DNA of 42,123 bases from a virus. The notes below the pieces were generated by a model. It ran no database searches. It saw only the letters and a program-made list of their open reading frames with translations, and was not told the DNA's origin. Positions 2,787 through 38,247 of the stretch are shown one piece after another (position 1 is the stretch's first letter; every line of letters begins with the position of its first letter). The DNA is taken from positions 1 to 42,123 of the IMG/VR virus record IMGVR_UViG_3300045988_118927; one strand, written 5' to 3'. A program made the position numbers and the translations under genes.

Positions 2787-3705
2787 TGTGATAGAGCAGA
2801 ACATAAAAGAACGATACTCGCTGTATAACGGCGATAGCTGTGAGATAGTTAAGGGAATACCAGACAACAGTATTCACTACACTATCTTTTCACCGCCATT
2901 TGCAAGCCTGTATACATACAGCAATAGCGACAGAGATATGGGCAACTGTAAGAACGATGACGAGTTTTACACGCATTTTAAGTATCTTGCCGCCGAACTG
3001 TTCAGAATAACTATGCCAGGACGTTTACTTTCTTTTCACTGCATGGATTTACCGAAAATGAAAGAGCGTGACGGTGTGATAGGTCTTAAAGATTTTCCTG
3101 CAATAATTCGTCAGGTATTCGAAGATTGCGGTTTTATCTATCACAGTCGTGTAACGATATGGAAAAACCCAGTCACCGAAATGCAGAGAACAAAAGCTCT
3201 TGGATTGTTGCATAAACAGATAAAAAAAGACAGTGCTATGAATCGTCAGGGAATACCTGATTACATTCTGACAATGCGTAAGCCCGGAGATAATCCGGAA
3301 CGTGTAACTCATACTGACGAGAGCTTCCCGTGCGATGTGTGGCAACAGTACGCTTCTCCTGTGTGGATGGATATACGTCAGAGTGATACTCTACAAAAAA
3401 ACTCGGCACGAGAAGAAAAGGATGAACGTCATATATGTCCTTTACAGCTTGAAGTAATTAAACGCTGTGTAGAGCTATGGACTAACCCGAATGATATTGT
3501 TCTTGATCCTTTCGGCGGTATAGGATCTGTTCCGTTTGTAGCCCTCGGACTTGGTAGACGTGCGATAGGTATCGAGCTTAAAAGCAGCTATTATAAACAA
3601 ATGGTAGCAAACGCAGAACAGGCAGATAAGAGCTTTAACGGTAGCACATCAGCTATAGGTGAACAGATGAATTTATCAGAGCTGTTCTCATCAAAAAAGG
3701 AATGA
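2779..3705 (+). CDS. DNA methyltransferase (N6-adenine or N4-cytosine, beta-class motif order)
   Basis: Catalytic motif IV FSPPF is near the N-terminus and the AdoMet motif I VLDPFGGIGS is near the C-terminus. Overlaps the helicase gene by 8 nt. Confidence 0.85.
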   Translation: MPNVIEQNIKERYSLYNGDSCEIVKGIPDNSIHYTIFSPPFASLYTYSNSDRDMGNCKNDDEFYTHFKYLAAELFRITMPGRLLSFHCMDLPKMKERDGVIGLKDFPAIIRQVFEDCGFIYHSRVTIWKNPVTEMQRTKALGLLHKQIKKDSAMNRQGIPDYILTMRKPGDNPERVTHTDESFPCDVWQQYASPVWMDIRQSDTLQKNSAREEKDERHICPLQLEVIKRCVELWTNPNDIVLDPFGGIGSVPFVALGLGRRAIGIELKSSYYKQMVANAEQADKSFNGSTSAIGEQMNLSELFSSKKE

Positions 3706-3872
3706 CCTGCTCTCACTGCGGCAAGAACGCAGAGCAAAACAACAACTGGGTATTATGCCCGTTTTACAAATATGAGCCTATATGTATGGCTCATTGCCAC
3801 AACGAATGCAAAAAGTTTGACAGAGCAAGCGGCAAGTGCTTGTTCTTACAGAAGAAAACAGGAGGAAAATAA
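3702..3872 (+). CDS. Small Cys/His-rich protein, 56 aa (below the ORF track cutoff)
   Basis: ATGA overlap with the methyltransferase stop. Translation MTCSHCGKN...LCPFYKYEPICMAHCHNECKKF...GKC. Ends 1 nt before the next gene's start. Confidence 0.4.
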   Translation: MTCSHCGKNAEQNNNWVLCPFYKYEPICMAHCHNECKKFDRASGKCLFLQKKTGGK

Positions 3873-3873
3873 A

Positions 3874-4530
3874 ATGGCAACAGCAAAGAAAACAGAAACG
3901 GTTGAAATCAAGCCGATAGAGATAAAGCAAGTGACACTGAGGATAGAGGGCGATACGCCTATCATTATGCACGCTTGGAGCGAGAAAGCAAAGAAGATGA
4001 TGCTCGATGCTCAGATGGGACTTGCCAAAGGCAAGAAGAAAGAAGCAAAGAATCCGATAGATGATTTCATCCAGTCAATGTACTGGCTGACCGACAAGCC
4101 CAAAGAAAGCACAGAAGAAGCCTTTATGCAGGCAATAAAGGACGGAGCAAGGTTCGGCTTCCCTGCTACATCGTTTAAACAGGCGGCAATCTCTGCGGCA
4201 TACAGACTCGGATATGTCAAGGACAAGATGGGTTTGCGTGGTGCGTTCTTCATAAACGGAGATGAAAACGGAATGGTTGAAATTCATTCAGATGTGCCGA
4301 TTATGCGTGAGGATATGGTCAAAATCGGTATGGGAACGGCTGACTTAAGATATCGTGGAGAATTCCGTAACTGGTGGGCAGAGCTTCACTTAACCTACAA
4401 TGTCAACAGCGGATTCTCACTTGAGAACATAATCAACGCTATCAACGCAGGAGGATACGCTTGCGGTGTGGGCGAATGGAGAGTTGAAAAGGACGGTCAG
4501 TTTGGAGCATTCCACATAGCCGTTGATTAA
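3874..4530 (+). CDS. Conserved-looking phage protein, function unknown (218 aa)
   Basis: The internal ATG at 3874 is preceded by acaggagga, so the track start at 3772 is rejected because it would overlap the small ORF. I could not name a family. Confidence 0.6.
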   Translation: MATAKKTETVEIKPIEIKQVTLRIEGDTPIIMHAWSEKAKKMMLDAQMGLAKGKKKEAKNPIDDFIQSMYWLTDKPKESTEEAFMQAIKDGARFGFPATSFKQAAISAAYRLGYVKDKMGLRGAFFINGDENGMVEIHSDVPIMREDMVKIGMGTADLRYRGEFRNWWAELHLTYNVNSGFSLENIINAINAGGYACGVGEWRVEKDGQFGAFHIAVD

Positions 4531-4780
4531 GGCAGGCAAGGCTTGTTCCGGTAAGGTTGGGTAAGGCAAGTCAGGGTACAGCAGGTAAGGCAGGGTATGG
4601 CATGGCAGGCGAGGTTTGGTGTGGCATGGTACGGTTGGGCTTGGCAAGGCAGGCAAGGCAGGCAAGGCGAGGTAGGCTAAGGCACGGTCTTGTTCGGTAT
4701 GGTGTGTTACGGCAGGTTAGGTGCGGCAAGGTGTGTTTGGGCGAGTTCCGTTAAGGCTCGGTATGGCAGGCTTGGAAGCC
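4531..4780 (+). repeat. G-rich, strongly strand-asymmetric tract of degenerate short repeats (GGCAAGG / GGCAGG / GGTAAGG / GGTATGG), non-coding
   Basis: Hand count over 250 nt gives about 43% G and 16% C, with about 43 separate G-runs (GG or GGG) spaced on average about 6 nt apart. The core GGCAAGGCAGGCAAGGCAGGCAAGGCGAGG lies at 4643-4672. CC occurs only three times (ttccgg at 4545-4550, ttccg at 4746-4750, gcc at 4778-4780). Confidence 0.9.
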
Positions 4781-4803
4781 TAATAATAATCAGGAGGTCA
4801 AAT

Positions 4804-5277
4804 ATGGTCTACGAATGGAAAGGAGCATCCCGAATAAAAGCGGATGCTCAGAAGGCAGGAGAGCTGTTTGAACAGCTTGAAGCCGAGAATGACTTGACAG
4901 CGGCAAGAGTTGTCGAGGAAAGCAGAGCCGAAGATGCGGTTCTGCACGATGAGTTCGAATGGAATGACTCGGAAGCGGCAAACAAGTACAGAGAAGGACA
5001 GGCAAGGCATCTCATAAATGCTATCACTATTGCAACAGTAAAAGCAGAAGGTTGTGATAAGCCTATCCCGGTGAGAGCGTTTTTTAATGTATCAGCCGAC
5101 AGCACTTACACAAGTGTAGTCAGCATCGCCAACAGTGCAGAAAAAACGGCAAATTTGGTGGCACAGGCAAAAAGAGAGTTAATTACCTTTACGAACAAGT
5201 ACAACGCAATACAGAGCTATCTGAGCGGCGTTTTCGATGCAATCAAGGAGGCAACCGATGTCAAGAGTGATAGTTAA
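4804..5277 (+). CDS. Hypothetical phage protein, 157 aa
   Basis: ATG at 4804 is preceded by caggaggtcaaat. Contains an HDEFEWNDSEAANKYREGQARHLI motif that I recall from phage proteins, but I cannot name the family. Confidence 0.6.
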   Translation: MVYEWKGASRIKADAQKAGELFEQLEAENDLTAARVVEESRAEDAVLHDEFEWNDSEAANKYREGQARHLINAITIATVKAEGCDKPIPVRAFFNVSADSTYTSVVSIANSAEKTANLVAQAKRELITFTNKYNAIQSYLSGVFDAIKEATDVKSDS

Positions 5278-6196
5278 GACGGTAGGGTTGAGCCGAGAAG
5301 ATTGGCTTGAATATCGCCGTAAAGGTTTAGGAGGCTCGGATGCCTCAACAGTATGTGGTCTGAATCCGTACAGTAGTAAACTGACACTGTGGGCAGATAA
5401 GACAGGCAGACTTCCCGAAAAGGAAGATAGCGAGGCAATGAGAACAGGGCGTGATCTTGAACAGTATGTCGCATCACGTTTCGAAGAAGCTACAGGCAAG
5501 AGGGTACATCGCAGAAACGCTATGTTCGCTCACGATAAGTACGATTTCATCACTGCGAACGTTGACCGTGAGGTAGTCGGCGAAAACGCAGGGCTTGAAT
5601 GCAAGACAACATCTGCGTATGCGAGAAGCGACTTTGAGAATGGCGAAATCCCCCTCAATTACTTATGCCAGTGCAGGCATTATATGAACGTAATGGGATA
5701 CGAAAAAATGTATCTCGCAGTGCTTGTAATGGGCAGAGCATTTTATTGGTTTGAAATACCGTATGACAAAGCCGAAGGCGATGCTTTGCTGAAGATGGAA
5801 ATTGACTTTTGGAATAAGTACATCGTCCCCGATGAGCGACCCGAAGCTGATGGCTCTGACTCAGCGGCAAGCACAATAAGAACGTTGTGGCACACAGAGA
5901 TTGAAGAATCAGCTTGCTTGCTTGGAGATGACACAAACTTTGATAGATATCTCAGCCTGCAGGAACAGAAGAAAGCTATCGAAAAAGCGATGAACGAAGT
6001 AAAGCAGAACGCTATTCTACATCTTGACGGAGCGGAAACAGGCTACACGAACAAGTACAACATAAGCTACAAGGAGTCTTCACGCACAAGCGTTGATACA
6101 AAAGCTCTCAAGGAAAAATATCCGCAGGCATATGCGGATTGCTCAAAAACAACAAAAACAAGGACATTCAGATTATCTGAAAGAAAGGATGTTTAA
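5258..6196 (+). CDS. YqaJ-type viral recombinase exonuclease
   Basis: N-terminal WLEYRRKGLGGSDASTVCGLNPYSS is the YqaJ signature. RBS aaggagg precedes ATG 5258. Sits immediately upstream of recT. Confidence 0.8.
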   Translation: MSRVIVKTVGLSREDWLEYRRKGLGGSDASTVCGLNPYSSKLTLWADKTGRLPEKEDSEAMRTGRDLEQYVASRFEEATGKRVHRRNAMFAHDKYDFITANVDREVVGENAGLECKTTSAYARSDFENGEIPLNYLCQCRHYMNVMGYEKMYLAVLVMGRAFYWFEIPYDKAEGDALLKMEIDFWNKYIVPDERPEADGSDSAASTIRTLWHTEIEESACLLGDDTNFDRYLSLQEQKKAIEKAMNEVKQNAILHLDGAETGYTNKYNISYKESSRTSVDTKALKEKYPQAYADCSKTTKTRTFRLSERKDV

Positions 6197-28131: not shown

Positions 28132-28146
28132 ACGGAGGTTTTGAGA

Positions 28147-31100
28147 ATGGACGAAGAAAGACTCAAGCGTATAAGGGCAAACATTGCGAAACACGAAGAA
28201 CGCAAGAAAACGCAGAATATAATGGGCGATATTGATTCGTCTAAACTTGACCGCAGTAACACAAGCTACAATAAAAATGATGCCGCTTTCGAAATGGCAA
28301 AGCAGCACTATCAGAATAGCTATCTACCGAAGAAGGCACAGGAATACTACAAGGGCGTTGAAAACTACAGAAATTCATATGAGCAGATGGCGAACAAGCC
28401 GAGTGCGAATAACTATACTGTAATGACTCCCGAAAACGAATCAGCGAATCTGATTGGTGACGATATCAACACATACGTTTCTCCGCAGATGCGTGAAAAG
28501 GCACAGAAGCACTATAACGAGGTATTTAACAACGAGAACAAGAAGTATGCTGAACAGTACGCAAGGTTGAACGAAAAGAGCAAGCCTGCGTACAGTTATG
28601 CACAGGCAAAGAGCAAAGCAGCGAAGGAAGTCGATAACAGCATCAACGCTTTTTCTTCTCAGTTTAAAGACGAGAACGAATACAACGCTTATGCTGATAA
28701 TATGGCACAGGCAAAGGAACAGCAGAGATTGCTTGACTACAACGTAGCTGAGGCAAAAAACAAACTGCTGACAATGAAAGCTGATACAGACGAATACAAA
28801 CAAATTGAATCAGATATAAAGAAAGCGGAAACTGTACAGGAATTTGCAAAGAATATGCAGGACGAAAACTTCCGCAAAGAATACGCCGAATACGAACAGC
28901 ATCAGAAGGACTATGAGAACAAAAACTGGTTTGGCAAGGCGGTTGAGCAAGTCGGAAACGCTATAGATGATGTTATCTATAGTTACGGTGGCGGTATGTA
29001 CGGTGTGGCAGAATCGGTTAGTGGAATTGCTGACTCTGTTTTCGGTAGAAATCCGAATGAAGAAGGAACACTTTCGAAAAATATTCATGACTTTTACAAT
29101 TACATCCATAGCGAAACAGAACGCAGGCAGCGTTATAGCAATTATACAAAGCAAGGGCTTACAACAGACATCTACAACGCAACTAATAACGAAGAATTTA
29201 GCAACATCGCAAGCAATGTTATCTCAATTACGCTTAACTCTCTTGCCGATGCAGGCGTAAGTATGGGAATGGCGGCACTCACTGGTGGAACATCTCTCGC
29301 ACAGAAAGGTTTACAGTCAACAGTAGGACTTACGAAAACACAGAAAGCTACGCAGATGATGTCAAGTATGGCTAAAGGAATGACAAAAGACCTCAACTTC
29401 TGGACATCGTTTGCGAGAGAAGGCGGTAGTGCGTACAATGATGCCATCGCCGCAGGAGCATCAAACGAGGAAGCTACAATTGCTATGCTTGCAACAGGCT
29501 TACCGAATGCTTATATCGAAGTCGGAGGCGGTGTCGAAAAGTTTAAAGACTTAGCAGGAACAGGCGTTAAGGGATGGCTCAGAGATTTCGCAAAAAGCAC
29601 AGGCGAAGAAGCGACCGAAGAATTGAAGCAGGGCATTATATCAGAGCTTGTTAAGAAGCTGACGTATGCTCCCGAAACAGAGCTATTCTCGACAGCCAAT
29701 GACGGTAGTGGTATTATCAATCCGATAAGAATGTATCAAGAAGCATTCGGTGGTGCTGTAGGCGGTGCTTTTGGTGGCTCTGTCGGTAAAGCTATAAACG
29801 TTGCAAGCTACACTGTAGCAAACAATATGTATAAGTCGGACAGTATGAGAGAGCTTATACAGAGCGGTAAGTATACTGAAATGCTTAAAGCACTTCCCGA
29901 TTCCGACTTTAAGAACAGCGAGATAAGCAAAACGTTCAGTGCTGAAATGGATGAAAAGCAGACTCTTGCGAAGCTCAAAGGCATAAGCAACAGACAGCTT
30001 ATCAAGCAGTACGATTCTATGGTTGATACGCTCAGTTCTGTGTCAGAAGGCAATGTTGCCAGTCTTGCACTTATAGCGACAGGCGATACAAAAACAGCCA
30101 CAGAGGTTGCTCCTATTCTCAGAAAGCTGTATGACGGTAAAGTAATAACAGAGGAAGAAGCTAAGATTATCTCACGCAATGAGAACGTTGTTAATATGCT
30201 CAGTGAAACCACAGGCTTGGATATGACGAATTCTTCGTGGGAAGAATTCGTTACACTATCGGAGCAGGCACAGTTTGAGAATATAACAGGCACAAGTACA
30301 GGCAACGCTATTGCTGATGTTGTTCTTGGTAATGCTCAGAGGGCTGAAGCAGGAAGAAACTACATAGCAGAAGAACAGAACAAGTATGCAAACGATCTCT
30401 CAGGCACACCTACATTCACGGCACAGATAGGTGATGAGTCTGTTAAGATAACAGGCATAGATCACATTGAAAACGGCGAAGTGTATGTAAATCTGTCAAA
30501 CGGCACAACGCAGGAGGCACAGAGTCTTAACACAGATGAAGTTACTACTGCTCTACTTTCCTATGCATCTGAGTATGATGCAAAAACTGCATCGGCATTT
30601 ATCGGTGGATACACAGGCAATATCTCTGTTGGTGAGTATGCGAGAAGTTTTGCAGGAGTAAACTCGGCAGCGAAAGCCGGGCTTAGCTATGATAATATTG
30701 TAAAAAGTGCTCCGACTATGATAAACAACGTAGGCATCGATACAGCAAAAACACTCACAAAAAGCGGCAACGCATTTGCTTTAAAACAGGCAACAGCCGA
30801 TATCGAAAACACGGTATCAGCACAGCAGAGACAGGCAACACGCAACGACAAAACCTCTGTAAAAAACAAGACAGGCGGCACTGTTACAAGAGAACACAGA
30901 ATACTTGCCCGTACCGTATCAAAGGTGACAGGCTATACCGTTGTGCTTGTAGACAGCACGAACGTCAAAAACGGAAAGACAGTTAACGGCAGAAAGGCTA
31001 TAGGTGAGTTTAACTCCACAAAGGGCGAAATCGTTCTTGATATAGGCTCTGATGATGTAGTAGCTACTACTCTGCACGAAGTTACCCACTACATAAAACT

Positions 31101-34100
31101 TAACGCACCGACACAGTATAACGCTTTGCGTGACGCTGTAATTGAATATGCGACAAAGACGGGTAAGATAGAGTATTATCTTGAAAAGTACGCAAATTCA
31201 TACGGTACAGATAATGTGTATGAGCTTACCGAAGAGATGACCGCAGACGCCGCCGAAGCTCTGCTGACAAACGAGAAGTTCATCAACGAGTTGTTAAGCG
31301 ACAAGTCGTTCGTCAACGCTGTTGTAGGCGAAAACAAAGGCTTTGTGCGCAAGTTCCTTGACACTCTGCACGATATAATCAGCGCTATTAAAGACTATCT
31401 CAAAGGCAGAAGCGTAAATCATCAGATAGCAAGAGAACTGTCGGAAGACGTAAAGGCGCTTGAAAAGATTGAGAAGCTTTGGAGAGATGCTTTGAAGGCG
31501 GCGGTTAATAATCATGCTGAAAGCTCGGCTGTTAAGCAAGATACGAAAAAATCCGCTACAGAGAGCGGAACAAAATTTTCTATTAAAGAAGATATGTCGG
31601 AGCAGGAACGTTACGAAGAGCTTAAAGATAAGTCTATAGTTGTCTCAAAGCCTGACATGAGCAAAGTATCCGATATAGACATTGAAGCATATAAAAACCT
31701 CAGCACCAAAGAAGCCAAAAAGCCGATCAGAAGAATTGCGGAGATGCTCGGAATACACAACGTCAATTACAAAAACAGCAATATCAAATTTGATTTTGCA
31801 TTTTCGAAAGGCAGCCTTGATACAAGTCTTAATCATCAAAGAGAGTATGGCGGAAGTTACACAGATTATGCTGAGATGCTTACCTGTCTTGAAAAACTCA
31901 TTGAAAATGCAGAGCTTATAGAAGTACATAAAAACTATAAGGATAACGAACAACTTAAAAGGACATTTGTGTTGATGAGTGCGTTAAGCGGCAAAGATGG
32001 TATTTATCCTGTTCAATTTGAAGTTAAAGAGTTTTACAGTAGCACCAAAAAGTTATATTTAACTGCTGTTCTGACAAAAATAAAAGAACCAGCCGTCGTA
32101 ACGGAGAGCCACACCGATTACTCGGAAGCATCAACTCCGCTGGTAGCTGATTCTACAATCAGTTTATCACAGCTTTTTGCAAATGTCAACCCCACTGACA
32201 AAAGGTTTTTAAAATATGTGCCGGATAACTTCTTATCAGCAGAGCAAATCGAAGCAAAGCGTAAAGCTCAGAAGAGTGATTACAAAAATTACAACAGATA
32301 TGTTGAGGTGTTTGAAAATGACAAAAACGGTAGCGACAACAAATTCTCCCTCTCCGAACCCGTTGAAGAAAAAGGCAATCTCATAGCTGTACATAATATC
32401 TATACAGATAAACTCGTCAAGTCATTAAAGCTCGGCGGTTTCCCGATGCCCTCAATAGCAGTCACAAAAGCGGATATGGGTCACGGGAATTATGGCGAGT
32501 GTTCGTTTGTTTTTGACAAATCAACGATTGATCCGAAAGCTGATAAAAGAAATAAGGTTTACGGTGGTGATGCGTGGACTCCAACATATCCGGCAATCGA
32601 GTATAAAGTAAGCGAAAAAATAGCGGACAAGGCACGAAAAAAATACTATGACTTATACGAACAGTACGGAGAAAAAGTCAGAGGTATGTATCGCTATGGC
32701 GTTACACTTGAAGATACTCTCAACAGCGAGGGTGGCGAGCAGAAAATGCTCAACAAGTTATACGATGATCCTGCTATGATGCAGGTGTATAGGCTTGACA
32801 ACGGTATGTCGGCAGTAGATAATGTTGTAAAAAGAAGAGAACGCCAGACGCTCAACGAGCAGGAAATAGCGTTGTCAAAACAGCTTTTGTCAGCGTTGGG
32901 AGACAAAATAGAAGAAGCAAGTGCAAAGAACGGCGAAAACCCTCTGCCGATAAGAAAAGCGTTTTTCAACAAATATCACGATGAGGTTATCAAGGCTTTT
33001 GAGGATTATTACAAAAGCACCGGAACGAGTGTCGAAGAAACTGAAACAAAGATAGCAAACACAAAGGCGTTTACGTTTGTTTCGTCAATAGCAAAAGCGC
33101 TGAGATACAAACAAAACAAAGGCATTGTTGCCGAAGAAATCTTTGATAACGAAGCAACAGATAAAGCTGTTCGTGATAGTGTTGACCAGTCTGAGTATCA
33201 AAAATGGATTGACGGACTGTTTAAAGGTGCTGAAGAAAAGAGTGGCATATGGAACGGTAAAGATTTTTACACACCAAGCGGAAGAACTCGAAACTTTGAT
33301 GCGCTCCATTACGAAGAAACTCTTGAGAACGTTGTTAAAGTAATGCGTTCCGAAATGAATGGTGACACTCTTTTTGGTGGCATGGGAATATGGGGCGTGG
33401 CGCAGAAAGAATACTCGTCTATTGATAAATTGAAATCAGACTCAGCTCGTTTGCAAAAAATGAGCGATGACGAATATTCAAACATAAAAAGTGGCTTTGC
33501 TGAACAGCTTAGCGAAGTGACTAAGGCAATCAAAAACGATTACTCCGGTAACAATTTCATTGATAGTGATATTGTCGCAGGTAATATTGTTGATGCAGTA
33601 AGAGAGTCAAAAACAAAGTCAGGCATAAAGAGCTATCTAAAGGAGTATTATCCCGATATAACCGATACGGCTGTAGATGATATCGTAAACCTTGTTCACG
33701 GCATTATGGAAATGCCGACAGGATATTTTGAAGCCAAGCCACAGAGAGCGGTACGCTTCGATGAAGTCAAGTATGCTGTTGTGCCGGAAACACTGGACGA
33801 GAACATAAAGAAACAGCTTTCCGAGTACGGCATTCAGGTTGTCGAGTACGAAAATGGTAACGAGAAAGACAGAACAGCAAAACTTAATTCGCTTGACGAT
33901 GTTAAGTTTTCTATTTCTGAACAGACATCTGCTGAGTATGAAATGCTCAAACAGGAAAACAATGATCTCAAGGCACAGATAGAAGCATTAAAAAAAGAGA
34001 TGGAATTGACAAGCGGTCACACTGTAGATGCCGAAGCAGTAAGCAAACTTGCCAAGAGATATATCAGAGAATACAAGAGCAAAGCCAATGTTGAAGAAGT

Positions 34101-37100
34101 GTCTGCAAAACTCAAACAGATTTTTGAGTACATTGCGAATGAAGATGCAAATGCCGAAGAAGCAAACAAGGCAATGTTTGAGCTTGCAGCACAGATAGTC
34201 AACAAGTCGGAAACGCTGAACGCTGAAATGCGTGATACATTCAAGGATGAGCTTGACATTATTCGTTCAGCGAGAATTTACGTTGACGATGCAACTAAAG
34301 CTGAGATAGAATCTCTGTACGGCGATTACAACACCTTCCGCAAGTCAATGTTCGGCAGAATGAAATTGACTACCAACAAAGAAAGTCACGGTCAAACAGT
34401 AGATATGCTTGTGCAGGAGCTTGCAGAGCTTGCACCGGGACAGTTTGATACAAACGTATCTGAGGGAGAATGTCTTGAACAGCTTGTCAGCTTTATAGAA
34501 GCAACAAAGCCGAGAATAGAAAATCCCTTCGGAGATTCTGTTGCTGAAGCGGCAAGCGAGTTAGCGTGGCAGATATTTGACGATTACTTCGATACTCCCG
34601 AAGTTAAAACGTTTGCCGACAAATACGAAGCAAAACTGCAGAAGGTTATCAACGAAAACCGTATAGCGAGAGCCGAATTACGCAAGGCTGAAAGGGCGAA
34701 AGCGAAAGCATTTTACGATGAAAAGCTCAAGGCTCTGCGTGATGAGAAAAACGAAGCTATAGCTAAGTTACGCAAGGAGAAAAACGATAAGTACGATAAC
34801 GATATTAAAAATCTGCGTGATGCCAAAGACAAGAAACTGAACGATGTCAGAGCTGACCGTGATGCCAAACTCAAGGCTCTGCGTGAACATTACAGAGAAC
34901 AGCAGAGAGAGAAGAGAGAAAACGCTGCCAAATCTGAACTGAGAGCAAGGATAACTACCGAGTACAAAAAGTTGTACAAGGATCTAACATCAAACAGCAA
35001 AGAGCATCACATTCCTGAAGTGTATAAGGAAACCGTTGCAAACGTGCTTGCAAGCATTGACCTTATAAGTAAAGCATCAAAGGAGAAAGCGGCTAAAACA
35101 GGTGAGGTTACAAAGGTTGCTGAAAAATTGAACAATCAACTGACGGCACTTGAAAACTTCATTTTGAATTATTCAATGTATGGAAACAAAGATGACGGCA
35201 CGAGCAGTGAACAACTGTACAATTTCGACCCCGACCTTGTATCCAACATTCAAAAAATCAAAGAGTATTTTAAGAGATATGCGAATAGCGGTACTAAAGC
35301 AATATCTGATATGAACATAGAAGAGTTAGAAGCCTTACACAATACGCTTAAAGCGTTGCGCTATGCTGTCAAAACAGCTGATAAAGCACTTTCTGCAAAC
35401 ATTACTCAGAGAATAACCGAGCTTGCTGAGAGTTCTATTTCAGAGATGGCAACGGATAGGACAAGAAGTCCGTTTAACAAAAACAAAGCGGCGCAGGCTG
35501 TCGGAGCGGTTGATACTTATATCAATTCTCAAATGCTTGACGCAAGGAGCTATTATCGTGGCATGGGCGATTCAGCATTTGAAATTTACAAGGCATTCCG
35601 CTCTGGCTTAGATTCCTTCATCAAACACACGCACGAAGCACAAGATTACTTTGCAAAAGTGCGTAAAGACAGTGGCTATACAGACAAGCAAATAAAACAC
35701 CTTGTGGACGATTACAAAACCTATACCGTATCACACGGCGAAATAGCAATGTCAAAAGCACAACTTATGTCGCTGTATTGTCTGTCGAAACGTGAACAAG
35801 CACTCGAACACATCTACAAAGGTGGTATCAGACCGACAGATCTTAAAGGAAAACGGCAAATAAAACCCGTGATGATTTCACCTGACGAGCTTTCAAGCCT
35901 ACTGAAAAATCTTAACAGTAATGAAATAGCTATGGCTGATAGGCTACAGCAGTTTATGGCTACCACTTGTGCAGAATGGGGCAATGAAGTGAGCATGGCT
36001 ATGTATGGCTACGCAAAGTTTACAGAAAGAAACTACTTCCCAATAAAGTCATCTGACACGAAGATACGGACAAACGATCAGAATTCGGGTGGGGACGCTG
36101 GCCTTTATTCAGTGCTTAATTACGGCATGACAAAAAGCCTTGTCAAGAACGCAAATAATTCTATTGACGTGGGAGATATTTTTAGTGTTACAAGACAGCA
36201 CATTGAGGAAATGAGCAGTTACAGTGCCTATGCATGTGCCGTTGCCGATAGTATGCGTTGGTTCAATTACAACAATCGTGAAACAGGCGAAAGCGTAAAG
36301 CAGTCTATGCTTAACAAATTCGGCACGAACGGTAGCAAGTATTTTATTGAGCTAGTGCGTGATATCAATCGCAACAAGCCTACGGGAAATTACGGCGGTG
36401 AAATATCAAGTGTACTTACATCCGCTCAAAAGGCGGCGGCTATAGCTGGTAACCTGTCAGTCGTTGTACAGCAACCTACGGCAATTGCGAGAGCTTGCAC
36501 CGAACTGTCGCTCGATTTAATCACAGAGGGAATAGCAATATCAGCTACGCACATCAAAAAGTCGGTACAAGAAGCTCAGGCACATTCAGATATTGCATGG
36601 TGGAAATCGCAAGGCTTTTTTGAAACTAATATGAGCAAATCAATGGACGAAATTATCACAGGAAGAAGCACTGCAAAGGATAAGATCGTTGAAATGGCTA
36701 TGAAGCCTGCCGGACTTGCCGATGATGTTACATGGGGAGCAATATGGGAAGCTACAAAGCTGTGGACAAAGAAATTCCATCCCGAAATAGAAGTTGGTTC
36801 GGATGAATTCTTCAGCATCACGAAAGAGAAATTTGATGATGTTGTCGATCAGACTCAGGTTGTGGACAGTGTACTGCACAGACCGATGATATTGCGAAGC
36901 AAGAACGCTTTAGTTAAGATGGATATGTCCTTTATGGCAGAGCCTCTTAAGTCAGCAAATCTGCTCAGAAACGCTATCGTTGATGTAAAGAACAAAAAGC
37001 CTAACGCTACAAAAAGACTGATCCGAGTATACGCATCCTGCGTAATGGCAAACGTTTTAGCGGCGGCGGCGAAAGCTATCGTAATGGCATTCCGTGATAC

Positions 37101-38247
37101 AGGAGATGATGAGTGGCGTGAAAAGTGGCTTGAGTCATTCGTGGGAGATTTGCTTTCCTCGCTTAATCCTGTCAGCATCATTCCGTTTGTCAAGGATATT
37201 CTCACGTTACTTGATGGTTATGATGTTGAACGTATGGATATGTCAGCAATCTCAGGAATTATCAAGTTCGGACAGCAGATGGCCACATCGGCACAGAAGG
37301 GGGAGCTTGATACATCGCTCAGTTTACAGAACGTTTATAAGCTGACAAGGTATCTCTCACGGCTTGCAGGCATTCCAGTGTACAACGTTCTCAGAGAGGT
37401 TGACACTATCATTGACATCTTCGGAGAGCCTATCTTCCGAGCATCACAGGCAACGCCCAATACGGAGAGATACGAAACTCTGTACAACGCTGTGATGAAA
37501 AACGATGAAGCCGAAATGCAGAACGAATATGACAGGCTCAGCAAGACACAGAGAGAAATTGAACGACGGTTAAAGTCGAAAATAATTGATGACAGCAAGG
37601 GCAACAAGATGTTCAATGCGGATGTCGATAAGGCGGCTAAAGCAAGAATAAGCGGAGATGTTAAAACGGCTGTAGAAATTGTGAAAAACCTTGCAGATAC
37701 AACGGCTCTGTCGAAGGATTTCTGGACAGCTTGTGTAAATGCGAGAGTAAACAAAATCAGCAAGGCACAGGAAAACCGCACACAGCTCATCGAAGCAGGC
37801 ATATCCAAGCTGACGGTTGACAATATGAGCGACACTGAAGTAAACGAGGCTCTTAAGAGTTACGAAACCGAAGCAGACACATCTACAGCAAGTGACTTAA
37901 ACGAGGACACCAATACCGAATCGCTCTACACAGCCGATGATTTAGTCAAGGCTCTGCAGGACGGCAACGAGTCTGATTACAACACGGCATATGACGATAT
38001 GGTGTCCACAAAGGCTGTATCTCTGATAATGCAGGCAGAAGCTGATAACAAGGAGCTTACTGCTGACGAAGCAGAAGAAAAGGCTGAAAGCTCGATCAAG
38101 TCGGCAATTACAAAAGTGCTTAAACCTTTAATGCGTGAGCTGTACAAAACCGATAAGAAAAAGTTTAACGAAATGAGGAAGAAAATCATCAAAAAATTTG
38201 GTTATACATCAAAACAGATAACAAAATGGTTGACTTCCGAAGAATAA
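28147..38247 (+). CDS. Giant multidomain (polyvalent-type) virion protein, 3366 aa, with a zincin-like HExxH module
   Basis: Single uninterrupted ORF of 10.1 kb. ggaggt RBS 7 nt before ATG 28147. HEVTH at nt 31075-31089 in the context GEIVLDIGSDDVVATTLHEVTHYI. Gly-rich hydrophobic segments (about aa 280-560), long coiled coils (about aa 1930-2400) and C-terminal hydrophobic segments. Confidence 0.8.
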   Translation: MDEERLKRIRANIAKHEERKKTQNIMGDIDSSKLDRSNTSYNKNDAAFEMAKQHYQNSYLPKKAQEYYKGVENYRNSYEQMANKPSANNYTVMTPENESANLIGDDINTYVSPQMREKAQKHYNEVFNNENKKYAEQYARLNEKSKPAYSYAQAKSKAAKEVDNSINAFSSQFKDENEYNAYADNMAQAKEQQRLLDYNVAEAKNKLLTMKADTDEYKQIESDIKKAETVQEFAKNMQDENFRKEYAEYEQHQKDYENKNWFGKAVEQVGNAIDDVIYSYGGGMYGVAESVSGIADSVFGRNPNEEGTLSKNIHDFYNYIHSETERRQRYSNYTKQGLTTDIYNATNNEEFSNIASNVISITLNSLADAGVSMGMAALTGGTSLAQKGLQSTVGLTKTQKATQMMSSMAKGMTKDLNFWTSFAREGGSAYNDAIAAGASNEEATIAMLATGLPNAYIEVGGGVEKFKDLAGTGVKGWLRDFAKSTGEEATEELKQGIISELVKKLTYAPETELFSTANDGSGIINPIRMYQEAFGGAVGGAFGGSVGKAINVASYTVANNMYKSDSMRELIQSGKYTEMLKALPDSDFKNSEISKTFSAEMDEKQTLAKLKGISNRQLIKQYDSMVDTLSSVSEGNVASLALIATGDTKTATEVAPILRKLYDGKVITEEEAKIISRNENVVNMLSETTGLDMTNSSWEEFVTLSEQAQFENITGTSTGNAIADVVLGNAQRAEAGRNYIAEEQNKYANDLSGTPTFTAQIGDESVKITGIDHIENGEVYVNLSNGTTQEAQSLNTDEVTTALLSYASEYDAKTASAFIGGYTGNISVGEYARSFAGVNSAAKAGLSYDNIVKSAPTMINNVGIDTAKTLTKSGNAFALKQATADIENTVSAQQRQATRNDKTSVKNKTGGTVTREHRILARTVSKVTGYTVVLVDSTNVKNGKTVNGRKAIGEFNSTKGEIVLDIGSDDVVATTLHEVTHYIKLNAPTQYNALRDAVIEYATKTGKIEYYLEKYANSYGTDNVYELTEEMTADAAEALLTNEKFINELLSDKSFVNAVVGENKGFVRKFLDTLHDIISAIKDYLKGRSVNHQIARELSEDVKALEKIEKLWRDALKAAVNNHAESSAVKQDTKKSATESGTKFSIKEDMSEQERYEELKDKSIVVSKPDMSKVSDIDIEAYKNLSTKEAKKPIRRIAEMLGIHNVNYKNSNIKFDFAFSKGSLDTSLNHQREYGGSYTDYAEMLTCLEKLIENAELIEVHKNYKDNEQLKRTFVLMSALSGKDGIYPVQFEVKEFYSSTKKLYLTAVLTKIKEPAVVTESHTDYSEASTPLVADSTISLSQLFANVNPTDKRFLKYVPDNFLSAEQIEAKRKAQKSDYKNYNRYVEVFENDKNGSDNKFSLSEPVEEKGNLIAVHNIYTDKLVKSLKLGGFPMPSIAVTKADMGHGNYGECSFVFDKSTIDPKADKRNKVYGGDAWTPTYPAIEYKVSEKIADKARKKYYDLYEQYGEKVRGMYRYGVTLEDTLNSEGGEQKMLNKLYDDPAMMQVYRLDNGMSAVDNVVKRRERQTLNEQEIALSKQLLSALGDKIEEASAKNGENPLPIRKAFFNKYHDEVIKAFEDYYKSTGTSVEETETKIANTKAFTFVSSIAKALRYKQNKGIVAEEIFDNEATDKAVRDSVDQSEYQKWIDGLFKGAEEKSGIWNGKDFYTPSGRTRNFDALHYEETLENVVKVMRSEMNGDTLFGGMGIWGVAQKEYSSIDKLKSDSARLQKMSDDEYSNIKSGFAEQLSEVTKAIKNDYSGNNFIDSDIVAGNIVDAVRESKTKSGIKSYLKEYYPDITDTAVDDIVNLVHGIMEMPTGYFEAKPQRAVRFDEVKYAVVPETLDENIKKQLSEYGIQVVEYENGNEKDRTAKLNSLDDVKFSISEQTSAEYEMLKQENNDLKAQIEALKKEMELTSGHTVDAEAVSKLAKRYIREYKSKANVEEVSAKLKQIFEYIANEDANAEEANKAMFELAAQIVNKSETLNAEMRDTFKDELDIIRSARIYVDDATKAEIESLYGDYNTFRKSMFGRMKLTTNKESHGQTVDMLVQELAELAPGQFDTNVSEGECLEQLVSFIEATKPRIENPFGDSVAEAASELAWQIFDDYFDTPEVKTFADKYEAKLQKVINENRIARAELRKAERAKAKAFYDEKLKALRDEKNEAIAKLRKEKNDKYDNDIKNLRDAKDKKLNDVRADRDAKLKALREHYREQQREKRENAAKSELRARITTEYKKLYKDLTSNSKEHHIPEVYKETVANVLASIDLISKASKEKAAKTGEVTKVAEKLNNQLTALENFILNYSMYGNKDDGTSSEQLYNFDPDLVSNIQKIKEYFKRYANSGTKAISDMNIEELEALHNTLKALRYAVKTADKALSANITQRITELAESSISEMATDRTRSPFNKNKAAQAVGAVDTYINSQMLDARSYYRGMGDSAFEIYKAFRSGLDSFIKHTHEAQDYFAKVRKDSGYTDKQIKHLVDDYKTYTVSHGEIAMSKAQLMSLYCLSKREQALEHIYKGGIRPTDLKGKRQIKPVMISPDELSSLLKNLNSNEIAMADRLQQFMATTCAEWGNEVSMAMYGYAKFTERNYFPIKSSDTKIRTNDQNSGGDAGLYSVLNYGMTKSLVKNANNSIDVGDIFSVTRQHIEEMSSYSAYACAVADSMRWFNYNNRETGESVKQSMLNKFGTNGSKYFIELVRDINRNKPTGNYGGEISSVLTSAQKAAAIAGNLSVVVQQPTAIARACTELSLDLITEGIAISATHIKKSVQEAQAHSDIAWWKSQGFFETNMSKSMDEIITGRSTAKDKIVEMAMKPAGLADDVTWGAIWEATKLWTKKFHPEIEVGSDEFFSITKEKFDDVVDQTQVVDSVLHRPMILRSKNALVKMDMSFMAEPLKSANLLRNAIVDVKNKKPNATKRLIRVYASCVMANVLAAAAKAIVMAFRDTGDDEWREKWLESFVGDLLSSLNPVSIIPFVKDILTLLDGYDVERMDMSAISGIIKFGQQMATSAQKGELDTSLSLQNVYKLTRYLSRLAGIPVYNVLREVDTIIDIFGEPIFRASQATPNTERYETLYNAVMKNDEAEMQNEYDRLSKTQREIERRLKSKIIDDSKGNKMFNADVDKAAKARISGDVKTAVEIVKNLADTTALSKDFWTACVNARVNKISKAQENRTQLIEAGISKLTVDNMSDTEVNEALKSYETEADTSTASDLNEDTNTESLYTADDLVKALQDGNESDYNTAYDDMVSTKAVSLIMQAEADNKELTADEAEEKAESSIKSAITKVLKPLMRELYKTDKKKFNEMRKKIIKKFGYTSKQITKWLTSEE

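What the first reader, a model, noticed from the sequence alone, without database searches (positions are those of the whole stretch)
4531..4790. 250-nt intergenic tract of about 43 G-runs with extreme G over C skew, upstream of the recombination module
Between the stop at 4530 and the RBS at 4792 the + strand is about 43% G and 16% C by hand count. It consists of degenerate GGCAAGG / GGCAGG / GGTAAGG / GGTATGG / GGTTGGG units. These include a near-perfect (GGCAAGGCAGG)n core at 4643-4672 and three longer related segments (cttgttccggtaagg at 4542, cttgttcggtatgg at 4690, gagttccgttaagg at 4743). Nothing else in the window looks like this, and the ORFs over it are low-complexity artefacts. The transcript would be G-rich with NAG/NGG triplets every 5-6 nt. 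Four hypotheses fit, and I cannot discriminate them from sequence alone. (a) Two-tetrad G-quadruplex or R-loop formation acting as a replication or recombination entry site. (b) A cluster of strand-specific G/T-rich Chi-like sequences that attenuates host AddAB/RecBCD just ahead of exo-recT. (c) A binding array for an oligomeric RNA-binding regulator, by analogy with the TRAP and HutP NAG-triplet arrays. (d) A structured non-coding RNA.
Basis: seen in the sequence. Interest (0 to 1): 0.65.

Follow-up and report, generated by a model that had tools for sequence, protein, structure and literature searches.

The report
Phage VIPR guide-RNA repeat array
The G-rich tract is the guide-RNA array of a VIPR system, a CRISPR-like, phage-encoded RNA-guided DNA-silencing system first described in 2026 preprints, and one of its guides exactly matches a DNA-binding-protein gene of rival phages.

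Summary
Window 4531-4790 has 41% G, 15% C and 43 GG runs, against 11±4.5 per 260 nt elsewhere in the window.

The tract is a tandem array of 5-nt GGY-NN units, with GG autocorrelation at lag 5 of 0.47. The 4-nt unit GGCA interrupts it every 45-55 nt.

The gene just upstream (3874-4530) encodes a RAMP-fold protein. Its profile matches the solved "SUSP1 Vipr protein" (E 1.6e-6), and the RNA-contact residues are conserved.

The order vipr, array, accessory gene recurs in about 40 IMG/VR phage loci. In those arrays GGY is conserved, NN is hypervariable, and array length varies widely.

This is a VIPR (Viral Interference Programmable Repeat) vrRNA array, as described in bioRxiv 10.64898/2026.04.26.720920 and .720927.

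I applied the published 1-nt-skip code to the guide at 4715-4764. It gave at least 240 exact matches. All lie in frame on the motif YANVW(E/D)PKSI of the Enc34-type (PF10991) ssDNA-binding-protein gene of other Bacillota phages and prophages, with every skipped base at a wobble position. About 0.2 matches are expected by chance. The window contains no self-target.

The "array bound by an oligomeric RNA-binding protein" reading is the closest.

This is a new member of a recently described kind.

The parts
3874..4530 (+). vipr gene: a 218-aa RAMP-fold protein starting MATAKK. The mechanical ORF extends upstream to 3772.
   Evidence: A profile of 21 homologues matches PDB 36pp_D 'SUSP1 Vipr protein' at E 1.6e-6 across the glycine-rich loop: CGVGEWR here, CGVGDWR in SUSP1. 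The AF2 model has pLDDT 78 and pTM 0.75. The 50 best Foldseek PDB matches listed are all CRISPR RAMP-containing effector chains (mostly Csm, plus type VII, Cas7-11/gRAMP and Cascade), with best E 1.1e-4. The residues that contact GGY in SUSP1 (H17, R138, D177, W178, R179; paper .720927) align to H33, R161, E201, W202 and R203. These are invariant or nearly invariant in alignment A1. The H17/H33 pairing lies in a weak segment of the alignment. The family is PHROG 4652, function unknown. More than 5,500 homologues exist, with no Pfam domain and no informative name (a few are labelled hypothetical protein).
4531..4768 (+). vrRNA array: 42 pentamer units (GGY-NN) in blocks separated by seven 4-nt GGCA-type units.
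   Evidence: The array starts directly after the vipr stop codon (TAA|GGCAGG). In 29 related arrays (1,762 pentamers), position 1 is G in 90%, position 2 is G in 73%, position 3 is C or T in 90%, and positions 4-5 are variable. Of the 4-nt units, 136 of 174 are GGCA. Their spacing peaks at 44-59 nt.
4535..4579 (+). Predicted guide vr1: 9 units, NN = AA TT CC AA TG AA AA AG AC.
   Evidence: Parse. The 1-nt-skip pattern gave 4 IMG/VR matches, which is chance level, with no shared peptide. Target not identified. A near-identical first guide is present in relatives L001-L005.
4584..4603 (+). Short block vr2: 4 units after a degenerate AGCA punctuation.
   Evidence: Too short to search. It may be a remnant or may belong to vr1.
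4608..4647 (+). Predicted guide vr3: 8 units, NN = GA TT GT AT AC TG TT AA.
   Evidence: The same NN string is kept in L001, L002 and L003 while the Y position differs (GGTGT versus GGCGT, GGTAC versus GGCAC). This suggests selection on NN. The 16-base pattern gave 51 IMG/VR matches, about chance, and the only recurrent peptide comes from one group of near-identical contigs. Target not identified.
4648..4660 (+). It is two punctuation units enclosing a single pentamer.
   Evidence: Probably a slippage or recombination scar between punctuation units.
4661..4710 (+). Predicted guide vr5: 10 units, with an irregular stretch GGTAG GCTAA.
   Evidence: Identical in L001 and L002. The 20-base 1-nt-skip pattern gave 0 IMG/VR matches. 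Target not identified.
4715..4764 (+). Guide vr6: 10 units, NN = TA GC AA GT TG GA CC AA TC AT. Predicted target is the PF10991 (Enc34-type, formerly DUF2815) ssDNA-binding-protein gene of other phages.
   Evidence: All 240 sites encode YANVWEPKSI (201) or YANVWDPKSI (39) in frame, with every skipped base at a codon third position and many different wobble variants. The protein is PF10991, E 3.5e-76 and 5e-81. The site lies near the 5' end of the gene, and the guide has the sense of the coding strand. vr6-like guides (18-19 of 20 NN bases) are kept in L006 and L008-L011.
4765..4781 (+). Last GGCA punctuation plus the terminal hairpin GGCTT-GG-AAGCC (4769-4780). This is the array's 3' cap or 'tail'.
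   Evidence: After the last GGCAGG, the next unit is followed within 12 nt by its reverse complement in 15 of 26 related arrays. This happens at 0 of 135 internal GGCAGG sites. Six different compensating stems occur: GGCTT/AAGCC, GGCAT/ATGCC, GGCTC/GAGCC, GGTAT/ATACC, GGCAA/TTGCC and GGCT/AGCC. No T-run follows and no terminator was called.
4804..5277 (+). Candidate vipr-accessory gene (vap-like), 157 aa starting MVYEWK, with RBS AGGAGG at 4792-4797.
   Evidence: A homologue with the conserved Y-x-W N-terminus and the (E/Y)-(W/F/Y)-(N/D)-D motif follows the array in 23 of the 31 arrays examined, window included. The family is PHROG 15946, function unknown. There is no match in Pfam, NCBIfam, PADLOC or PDB sequences. 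The AF2 model is confident (pLDDT 89.8), but Foldseek finds nothing in PDB and only uncharacterised viral proteins in BFVD. Its role is inferred from position only.

Best explanation
The tract is the vrRNA array of a VIPR (Viral Interference Programmable Repeat) system carried by a temperate Bacillota phage.

Shown here:
- The tract is a run of GGY-NN pentamers.
- It sits directly after a gene for a Vipr-type RAMP protein.
- This pairing is conserved across distant relatives. GGY stays fixed while the NN dinucleotides and the number of blocks change freely.
- One block, vr6 (4715-4764), read with the published 1-nt-skip code, spells exactly the coding sequence of a conserved motif in the Enc34-type SSB gene of many other phages and prophages.
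- The window has no such site.

Taken from the two 2026 preprints (experiments on phage SUSP1 and a Pseudomonas fulva prophage):
- One Vipr protomer binds each repeat and sequesters GGY.
- The NN bases are displayed for pairing.
- They pair with double-stranded DNA while skipping every third base, forming an R-loop triplex.
- The bound complex blocks transcription.

Inferred for this locus:
- The array is transcribed together with vipr.
- It is cut, or simply delimited by the break in register, at the GGCA units into RNAs of about 45-55 nt.
- It is capped by the terminal hairpin.
- The vr6-Vipr filament sits on the 5' part of a rival phage's SSB gene and silences it. This would favour this phage, or its lysogen, over phages that use the DUF2800 / DUF2815-SSB / PolA / D5-primase replication module.
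For: Anatomy.

Protein: PDB profile match to SUSP1 Vipr at E 1.6e-6, with the glycine-rich loop and thumb residues conserved. RAMP fold by AF2 plus Foldseek.

Synteny: 43 IMG/VR loci carry the protein at 37-100% identity. About 38 have the G-rich tract directly downstream on the same strand, 76 to about 850 nt long.

Cassette-like variation: relatives with 99-100% identical Vipr carry 1, 6 or 8 blocks and share some of them.

Target: at least 240 exact, in-frame, wobble-skipping matches for vr6. Empirical chance levels from the other guides were 0 matches for 20 specified bases, 4 for 18 and 51 for 16.

No self-target at 80% NN match or better. The window's own SSB is the unrelated PF00436 type.

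Independent check of the code: 134 other guides from related arrays were scanned against the 1.9 Mb of target loci. They give 159 hits (11 guides) with a 1-nt skip, against 0, 1 and 5 hits with skips of 0, 2 and 3, and 1 hit for reversed patterns. The hits fall on PolA, DUF2800 and D5-type primase-helicase genes of the same module.

Literature.
Against: There is no expression, processing or binding data for this locus. No promoter or terminator was called convincingly around the array.

Only one of the four searchable guides has an identified target.

The Vipr match to the solved structure covers mainly the C-terminal third. The N-terminal alignment is weak.

The published vrRNAs carry an invariant structured 3' tail after each guide. 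Here only the end of the array has a hairpin, and only in 15 of 26 relatives.

According to the preprint, the 'staggered array' architecture that this resembles was not among those confirmed by small-RNA sequencing.

The accessory protein shows no recognisable DNA-binding or nuclease domain.
Confidence: 0.9

Rival explanations
1. The tract is a cis-acting leader in the mRNA. An oligomeric RNA-binding protein (TRAP- or HutP-like, or Vipr itself) coats the repeats to control translation or stability of the downstream MVYEWK gene. On this reading it does not guide any DNA recognition.
For: The tract lies between two co-oriented genes and ends about 10 nt before the downstream RBS. The repeats are periodic. 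A small hairpin lies just upstream of the RBS.
Against: The conserved bases are GGY, not the GAG/UAG triplets of TRAP sites. A pure binding platform would not need hypervariable NN or block gain and loss between near-identical phages. It also would not explain an exact 20-base, wobble-skipping match to a foreign gene in at least 240 loci, or the fact that only the 1-nt-skip rule gives hits for related arrays. In some relatives the array lies elsewhere: upstream of vipr in Mycobacterium phage Brocalys and probably in L042 (where only a G-rich stretch upstream of vipr was flagged, not read), and after the second gene in L043.
Confidence: 0.04
2. The tract is a DNA-level element. The G-rich non-template strand forms two-tetrad G-quadruplexes or a stable R-loop that serves as a replication or recombination entry site for the adjacent exo/RecT/SSB/DnaD module.
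For: Extreme GC skew (+0.46) and 33 overlapping G2-type quadruplex patterns. The tract lies in the replication/recombination region.
Against: G4Hunter peaks at 1.0 and there is no G3+ motif. The tract's constant neighbour is the RAMP gene, not the recombination genes. In L007 and L036 the downstream genes differ (an SSB gene in L036), and L226 has no exo/RecT. The 5-nt register with a fixed pyrimidine at position 3 and free NN has no rationale for a quadruplex or an R-loop. The NN content carries sequence information that matches foreign genes.
Confidence: 0.02
3. The tract is a cluster of Chi-like sequences that attenuates host AddAB/RecBCD ahead of the phage recombination genes.
For: The sequence is G/T-rich and strand-specific, next to exo-recT.
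Against: None of the known Chi motifs tested (B. subtilis, E. coli, L. lactis, S. aureus, H. influenzae) occurs in the tract. No fixed 5-8-mer is repeated apart from GGCA(GG). Block content differs between near-identical phages. The same kind of tract occurs in actinophages, whose hosts have different Chi sequences.
Confidence: 0.01
4. The tract is coding or pseudo-coding low-complexity sequence, for example an N-terminal extension of the downstream protein as gene callers annotate it.
For: An ORF runs from TTG 4690 to 5277. Database homologues are called at 187-243 aa instead of 157. In Gordonia phage UmaThurman the equivalent array is annotated as CDS gp40.
Against: The period is 5, not 3. 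Array lengths among close relatives differ by non-multiples of 3. The conserved protein alignment begins at MVYEWK, which has its own strong RBS. Stop codons occur in all frames of the tract; only short ORFs cross it.
Confidence: 0.01

Closest known systems
VIPR systems (Vipr protein plus vrRNA), bioRxiv 10.64898/2026.04.26.720920 and 10.64898/2026.04.26.720927. Characterised examples: Escherichia phage SUSP1 and a Pseudomonas fulva prophage (type II).
   Same: - A phage-encoded minimal locus with a RAMP gene, an intergenic array and one small accessory gene.
- Tandem YNNGG (GGY-NN) pentamers with hypervariable NN.
- Guide blocks of 8-10 units here and 9-12 typically in relatives; the published range is 9-16.
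- Conserved GGY-contact residues in the protein.
- The 1-nt-skip code gives exact matches in coding sequences of rival phages, with skipped bases at wobble positions.
- No self-targeting.
- Several arrays converge on one kind of competitor.
   Different: - The protein is very distant from SUSP1 Vipr; only a profile detects it, mainly over the C-terminal third.
- Guides are not separated by structured or pseudoknotted tails. They are separated by a 4-nt GGCA unit that shifts the register by one base, which fits the preprint's 'staggered arrays', reported there without small-RNA confirmation.
- Only the array's end carries a hairpin.
- The host range is Bacillota gut and rumen phages.
- The accessory protein has no recognisable winged-helix, HTH or nuclease domain.
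- The VIPR type (I-VII) could not be assigned because the preprint's classification data are not in the text held here.
Class 1 CRISPR-Cas (Cas7/Csm3 backbone filament on crRNA; CRISPR array)
   Same: A RAMP-fold protein is predicted to polymerise along a guide RNA. The closest solved folds are Csm3-type Cas7 subunits. The array is hypervariable and aimed at foreign genetic elements, and it is lost and gained in cassettes.
   Different: There is no repeat-spacer architecture and no Rfam CRISPR repeat match above threshold in the tract. No cas1/cas2 or other cas genes are present. The guide is non-contiguous, with 2 of every 5 bases read. The periodicity is 5 nt rather than 6. The system is carried by a phage.
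TRAP (trp RNA-binding attenuation protein) and HutP binding arrays
   Same: These work alike in one respect: a protein oligomer reads short conserved motifs spaced every 5 or so nt on a single-stranded RNA.
   Different: TRAP reads 9-11 GAG/UAG triplets in a leader RNA to control attenuation in cis. Here the conserved motif is GGY, there are more than 40 units, the partner is a RAMP protein, and the variable bases carry targeting information in trans.

Membership tests
VIPR system | A Vipr protein (minimal RAMP: RRM core, glycine-rich loop, thumb) is encoded next to the repeats. | tested here: met
   The profile of the 3874-4530 product matches PDB 36pp_D 'SUSP1 Vipr protein' at E 1.6e-6. The AF2 model's 50 best listed Foldseek matches are all CRISPR RAMP-containing effector chains (mostly Csm).
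VIPR system | The residues that hold GGY in the SUSP1 structure (H17, R138, D177, W178, R179) are conserved. | tested here: met
   They align to H33, R161, E201, W202 and R203, all invariant or at least 90% conserved in 21 homologues. D to E is a conservative change. The H17 alignment lies in a weakly scoring segment.
VIPR system | Tandem YNNGG repeats; the preprint's search criterion is at least 4 units. | tested here: met
   Perfect consecutive runs of 8, 4, 3 and 3 units. Overall there are 43 in-register pentamers, 35 with GGY. Lag-5 autocorrelation is 0.47.
VIPR system | GGY is conserved and NN hypervariable across related arrays. | tested here: met
   1,762 units from 29 loci: G 90%, G 73%, Y 90%, then two positions where no base exceeds 40%. 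Of 151 guide blocks, 138 have unique NN strings.
VIPR system | Individual vrRNAs have 9-16 repeats. | tested here: met
   Blocks between GGCA units are 9, 4, 8, 1, 10 and 10 units in the window. In relatives the spacing peaks at 44-59 nt, or 8-11 units. The block boundaries are inferred, not mapped.
VIPR system | An invariant, structured 3' tail follows the repeat tract of each vrRNA. | tested here: inconclusive
   No tail lies between blocks. A covarying hairpin follows the last GGCAGG in 15 of 26 arrays and at 0 of 135 internal sites. This is compatible with the 'staggered array' variant named in the preprint, but its figure is not available.
VIPR system | Targets obey the 1-nt-skip rule, lie in rival mobile elements, and have skipped bases at codon wobble positions. 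| tested here: met
   vr6 gives at least 240 exact matches, all in frame on YANVW(E/D)PKSI of PF10991 SSB genes. The rule was confirmed independently with 134 guides of related arrays. Targets of vr1, vr3 and vr5 were not found.
VIPR system | No self-targeting. | tested here: met
   No site in the window reaches 80% NN match for any guide under the 1-nt-skip rule.
VIPR system | A vipr-accessory (vap) gene with a DNA-related function. | tested here: inconclusive
   A conserved 157-aa gene follows the array in 23 of the 31 arrays examined, window included, but no domain or fold match was found.
VIPR system | vrRNAs are expressed, processed and co-purify with Vipr, and the RNP represses its target. 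| not testable with these tools
   This needs small-RNA sequencing, pull-down and reporter or plaque assays.
CRISPR array | Identical direct repeats of about 25-40 nt alternate with unique spacers, with cas genes nearby. | tested here: not met
   The repeat finders report only degenerate short-period families. There is no Rfam CRISPR repeat match in the tract. No cas genes were found among those annotated.
TRAP/HutP-type leader | NAG (GAG/UAG) triplets spaced by 2-3 nt, in the leader of a regulated operon. | tested here: not met
   The conserved bases are G-G-Y. The two bases preceding GG are the variable ones.
G-quadruplex-forming element | G4Hunter score of 1.2 or more, or four G3+ runs with short loops. 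| tested here: not met
   The maximum score is 1.0 and there is no canonical motif.

The most novel reading that the evidence does not exclude
This clade may represent a VIPR array architecture that has not been characterised experimentally. It has three proposed features.

First, guides are laid head to tail with no tail, ribozyme or repeat handle between them. They are delimited only by a 4-nt GGCA unit that breaks the 5-nt register, so the Vipr filament itself could measure out each guide. One covarying hairpin closes the whole array.

Second, guides are aimed at invariant peptide-coding motifs. Because the code skips wobble positions, a single 50-nt RNA (vr6) covers the SSB gene of rival phages in more than 100 bacterial species. 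That would make it broad-spectrum interference that silent mutations cannot evade.

Third, the near-identical guide variants in relatives (for example CC to GC at one unit) may be tracking target variants.
Probability: 0.35. Interest if true: 0.6.

Novelty: new member of a known kind. Interest (0 to 1): 0.45.

Why it matters
VIPR was described only in 2026, and the experiments so far are on two proteobacterial systems. This locus is a clear, easily testable Bacillota example.

- It has a compact 0.9-kb vipr-plus-array unit.
- It gives a concrete guide-target pair: vr6 against the YANVWEPKSI site of Enc34-type SSB genes.
- It shows natural allelic series of arrays between near-identical phages.

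The locus suggests how temperate gut phages exclude competitors that use a different replication module. It also shows that a wobble-skipping code lets one guide hit a very broad set of rivals.

There is a practical consequence. These arrays are currently mis-annotated as protein-coding sequence or as N-terminal extensions of the neighbouring gene, both in metagenomes and in cultured actinophages.

Tried and rejected
- Rfam scan of 3500-6000 at E up to 10: nothing in the tract.
- blastn of 3772-5277 against GenBank phages: no match.
- Pfam, NCBIfam and PADLOC on both flanking proteins: nothing.
- The G-quadruplex, Chi and structured-RNA readings were tested and rejected.
- Target searches for vr1, vr3 and vr5 gave chance-level or zero exact matches. 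They showed no enrichment at 80-85% NN match or better in the 1.9 Mb of vr6-target loci.
- The one recurrent peptide among vr3 hits (EFVITWL, 10 of 51) comes from a single group of near-identical environmental contigs, so I did not accept it as a target.
- The accessory protein could not be identified. PDB sequence search, Foldseek against PDB and Foldseek against BFVD returned only uncharacterised proteins.
- The host could not be named. The contigs carrying the same or similar Vipr are metagenomic.
- The VIPR type (I-VII) could not be assigned. The preprint text held here has no taxon names and no supplementary tables.
- The promoter/terminator scan around the array was uninformative.
Full report
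**1.

Window 4531-4790 (+ strand) is 41.2% G and 15.4% C. It contains 43 GG-or-longer runs but only 5 GGG-or-longer runs and 3 CC runs. Sliding 260-nt windows over the whole 42-kb sequence average 11.0±4.5 GG runs, so this tract is the single maximum. The local skew peak also shows in the composition profile.

The three 'longer segments' are at 4542, 4689 and 4743.

GG-start autocorrelation is 0.47, 0.36 and 0.39 at lags 5, 10 and 15, against -0.01±0.06 in shuffles. A dynamic-programming parse reads the tract as 43 pentamers, 35 of them canonical GGYNN. Seven 4-nt units (six GGCA, one AGCA) interrupt them, and each shifts the register by one base. The 'longer segments' are in-register units in which GG has decayed to GT, such as GTTCC.

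**2. Context**

The window is a near-complete temperate phage. It encodes integrase, terminase, portal, major head protein and endolysin. It also carries a replication/recombination block: SNF2-type helicase, DNA methylase, YqaJ exonuclease, RecT, RusA, a PF00436 SSB, and DnaD-like and DnaC-like loaders.

The tract lies between two genes of unknown function: PHROG 4652 (3874-4530) and PHROG 15946 (4804-5277). It has no Rfam match and no DNA match in GenBank phages.

**3. The tract travels with the upstream gene**

A search of IMG/VR with the upstream protein returned 43 loci at 37-100% identity. In about 38 of them a G-rich, C-poor tract starts right after the gene's stop codon on the same strand. 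Its length ranges from 76 nt to about 850 nt.

In 23 of the 31 arrays examined (window included), a homologue of the downstream MVYEWK gene follows the tract. The genes further downstream vary.

Over 1,762 pentamers from 29 loci, the positions are G 90%, G 73%, C/T 90%, then two variable positions. Of the 4-nt units, 136 of 174 are GGCA, spaced mostly 44-59 nt apart.

Phages whose upstream protein is 99-100% identical to the window's carry arrays of 50, 295, 369 and 398 nt, against 250 nt here. Whole blocks are shared, missing or recombined. These lengths do not differ by multiples of 3, which excludes a conserved reading frame.

**4. Identity**

A profile of the upstream protein matches one solved structure, PDB 36pp_D 'SUSP1 Vipr protein', at E 1.6e-6. 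That name led to two 2026 preprints.

The first (10.64898/2026.04.26.720920) describes VIPR systems:
- They are phage-encoded loci with a minimal RAMP protein (Vipr), a small accessory gene (vap), and vrRNAs made of 9-16 YNNGG repeats.
- GGY is conserved and NN is hypervariable.
- The NN dinucleotides pair with double-stranded DNA while one target base is skipped per repeat.
- Natural targets are competing phages and satellites. The skipped base usually falls at the codon wobble position, and no self-targets were found.

The second (10.64898/2026.04.26.720927) shows that one Vipr protomer binds each repeat. H17, R138, D177, W178 and R179 hold the GGY bases.

In the window's protein these residues align to H33, R161, E201, W202 and R203, which are invariant or nearly so among 21 homologues. 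The AF2 model (pLDDT 78) finds only CRISPR RAMP-containing effector chains (mostly Csm) among its 50 best listed PDB matches.

The tract therefore meets the sequence definition of a vrRNA array, and the neighbouring gene meets the definition of Vipr.

**5. Functional test by target prediction**

I split the array at the GGCA units and converted each block to a 1-nt-skip pattern. No block has a site in the window itself at 80% NN match or better.

Exact-match scans of IMG/VR gave the following:

| Guide | Specified bases | IMG/VR matches |
|---|---|---|
| vr5 | 20 | 0 |
| vr1 | 18 | 4 |
| vr3 | 16 | 51 |

The vr1, vr3 and vr5 counts fall sixteen-fold per two bases, as chance predicts, and the hits share no common protein. 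That scaling puts the chance expectation for vr6 at about 0.2.

These are mostly Bacillota: Lachnospiraceae, Oscillospiraceae, Veillonellaceae, Bacillaceae and others.

All 240 vr6 sites encode YANVWEPKSI or YANVWDPKSI in frame. Every skipped base is a codon third position, and many different wobble variants occur. The gene is the Enc34-type ssDNA-binding protein, PF10991, formerly DUF2815. The site lies near its 5' end, and the guide has the sense of the coding strand.

The window's own SSB is of the unrelated PF00436 type.

**6. Independent check of the code**

I took 134 guides from related arrays, excluding the vr6-like ones, and scanned them against the 1.9 Mb around the vr6 targets:

| Skip length | Hits |
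|---|---|
| 0 nt | 0 |
| 1 nt | 159 (11 guides) |
| 2 nt | 1 |
| 3 nt | 5 |
| Reversed patterns (control) | 1 (0 at skip 0) |

The hits fall on conserved motifs of family-A DNA polymerase, DUF2800 nuclease and D5-type primase-helicase genes in the same module. So arrays of this Vipr clade converge on one class of rival phage replication module. This parallels the convergence reported in the preprint.

**7. Architecture particular to this clade**

Guides are not separated by structured tails. The GGCA unit reads as two pentamers sharing one G (GGCAG|GGYNN). This fits the preprint's description of 'staggered arrays' whose vrRNAs overlap by 1 nt. By the preprint's own wording, small-RNA sequencing confirmed only the other two alternative architectures it lists.

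After the last GGCAGG, the next unit is followed by its reverse complement in 15 of 26 arrays and at none of 135 internal sites. Six different compensating stems occur. In the window this hairpin is GGCTT-GG-AAGCC at 4769-4780.

The repeat part itself is no more structured than shuffles (z = +0.31).

**8. Rejected readings**

- G-quadruplex: G4Hunter peaks at 1.0 and there is no G3+ motif.
- Chi: none of five known motifs is in the tract.
- Coding: period 5 and non-triplet length variation.
- TRAP-like leader: the conserved bases are GGY, and the variable bases carry information that matches foreign genes.

**9. What remains inferred**

- Transcription of the array with vipr. No convincing promoter or terminator was found.
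- Processing at the GGCA units.
- RNP formation and silencing of the rival SSB gene.
- The role of the 157-aa downstream protein. It models confidently (pLDDT 89.8) but matches nothing annotated.
- The VIPR type.
- The targets of vr1, vr3 and vr5.

**10. Verdict**

Its identity is now known: a VIPR vrRNA array with its Vipr gene. This one is a new, uncultured Bacillota-phage member of a kind described in 2026.

The added value here is a specific predicted guide-target pair, a clade-level confirmation of the 1-nt-skip code, and a description of the GGCA-punctuated, hairpin-capped array form.

Noticed in passing
window 4690-5277; proteins P0121-P0135: Gene callers extend the MVYEWK gene upstream into the array. 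Database homologues are called at 187-243 aa instead of 157, and in the window an ORF runs from TTG 4690. The array is therefore being annotated as protein.
   Followed up: partly
L351 2625-2948 (Gordonia phage UmaThurman NC_031249 33362-33685); L352 1596-1841 (Mycobacterium phage Brocalys NC_031262): Cultured actinophages carry Vipr homologues at 37-40% identity (gp39 and gp45). In UmaThurman the GGYNN array, also punctuated by GGCAGG, is annotated as 'hypothetical protein gp40'. In Brocalys the array lies upstream of the gene and overlaps its annotated start.
   Followed up: partly
L001 5068-5112, L002 2748-2792, L003 3478-3522, L006 about 4972: Relatives carry a variant of vr6 (NN = GC AA GT TG GA GC AA TC AA). 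It differs at one unit (CC to GC, proline to alanine codon) and at the ends. It may track a variant of the same SSB motif.
   Followed up: no
L034 4700-5150, L037 4700-5480, L043 4800-5050: More distant loci have long degenerate tracts punctuated by GGCAGT(C) instead of GGCAGG, with many GG units decayed to GT. In L043 the tract lies after the second gene and is followed by a tRNA-like sequence.
   Followed up: no
L041 5401-5680; L032 5806-6120; L035 5771-5995: A second G-rich repeat tract lies downstream of the accessory gene in some loci. This recalls the upstream-plus-downstream vrRNA layout of SUSP1.
   Followed up: no
window 4648-4660: The only perfect tandem repeat, (GGCAAGGCA)x2.9, is two GGCA punctuation units around a single pentamer. 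It looks like a slippage or recombination scar and may be a hotspot for block loss. L003 shows a fusion between the start of vr5 and the last guide.
   Followed up: partly
window 28141-38247 (+): A single 3,368-aa ORF lies in the structural region. It was not examined.
   Followed up: no
L175-L225 (10 of 51 vr3 pattern hits): Ten near-identical environmental contigs encode a 90-aa protein containing EFVITWL at the vr3 pattern. I judged this one chance hit multiplied by redundancy, but it was not excluded as a real target.
   Followed up: partly
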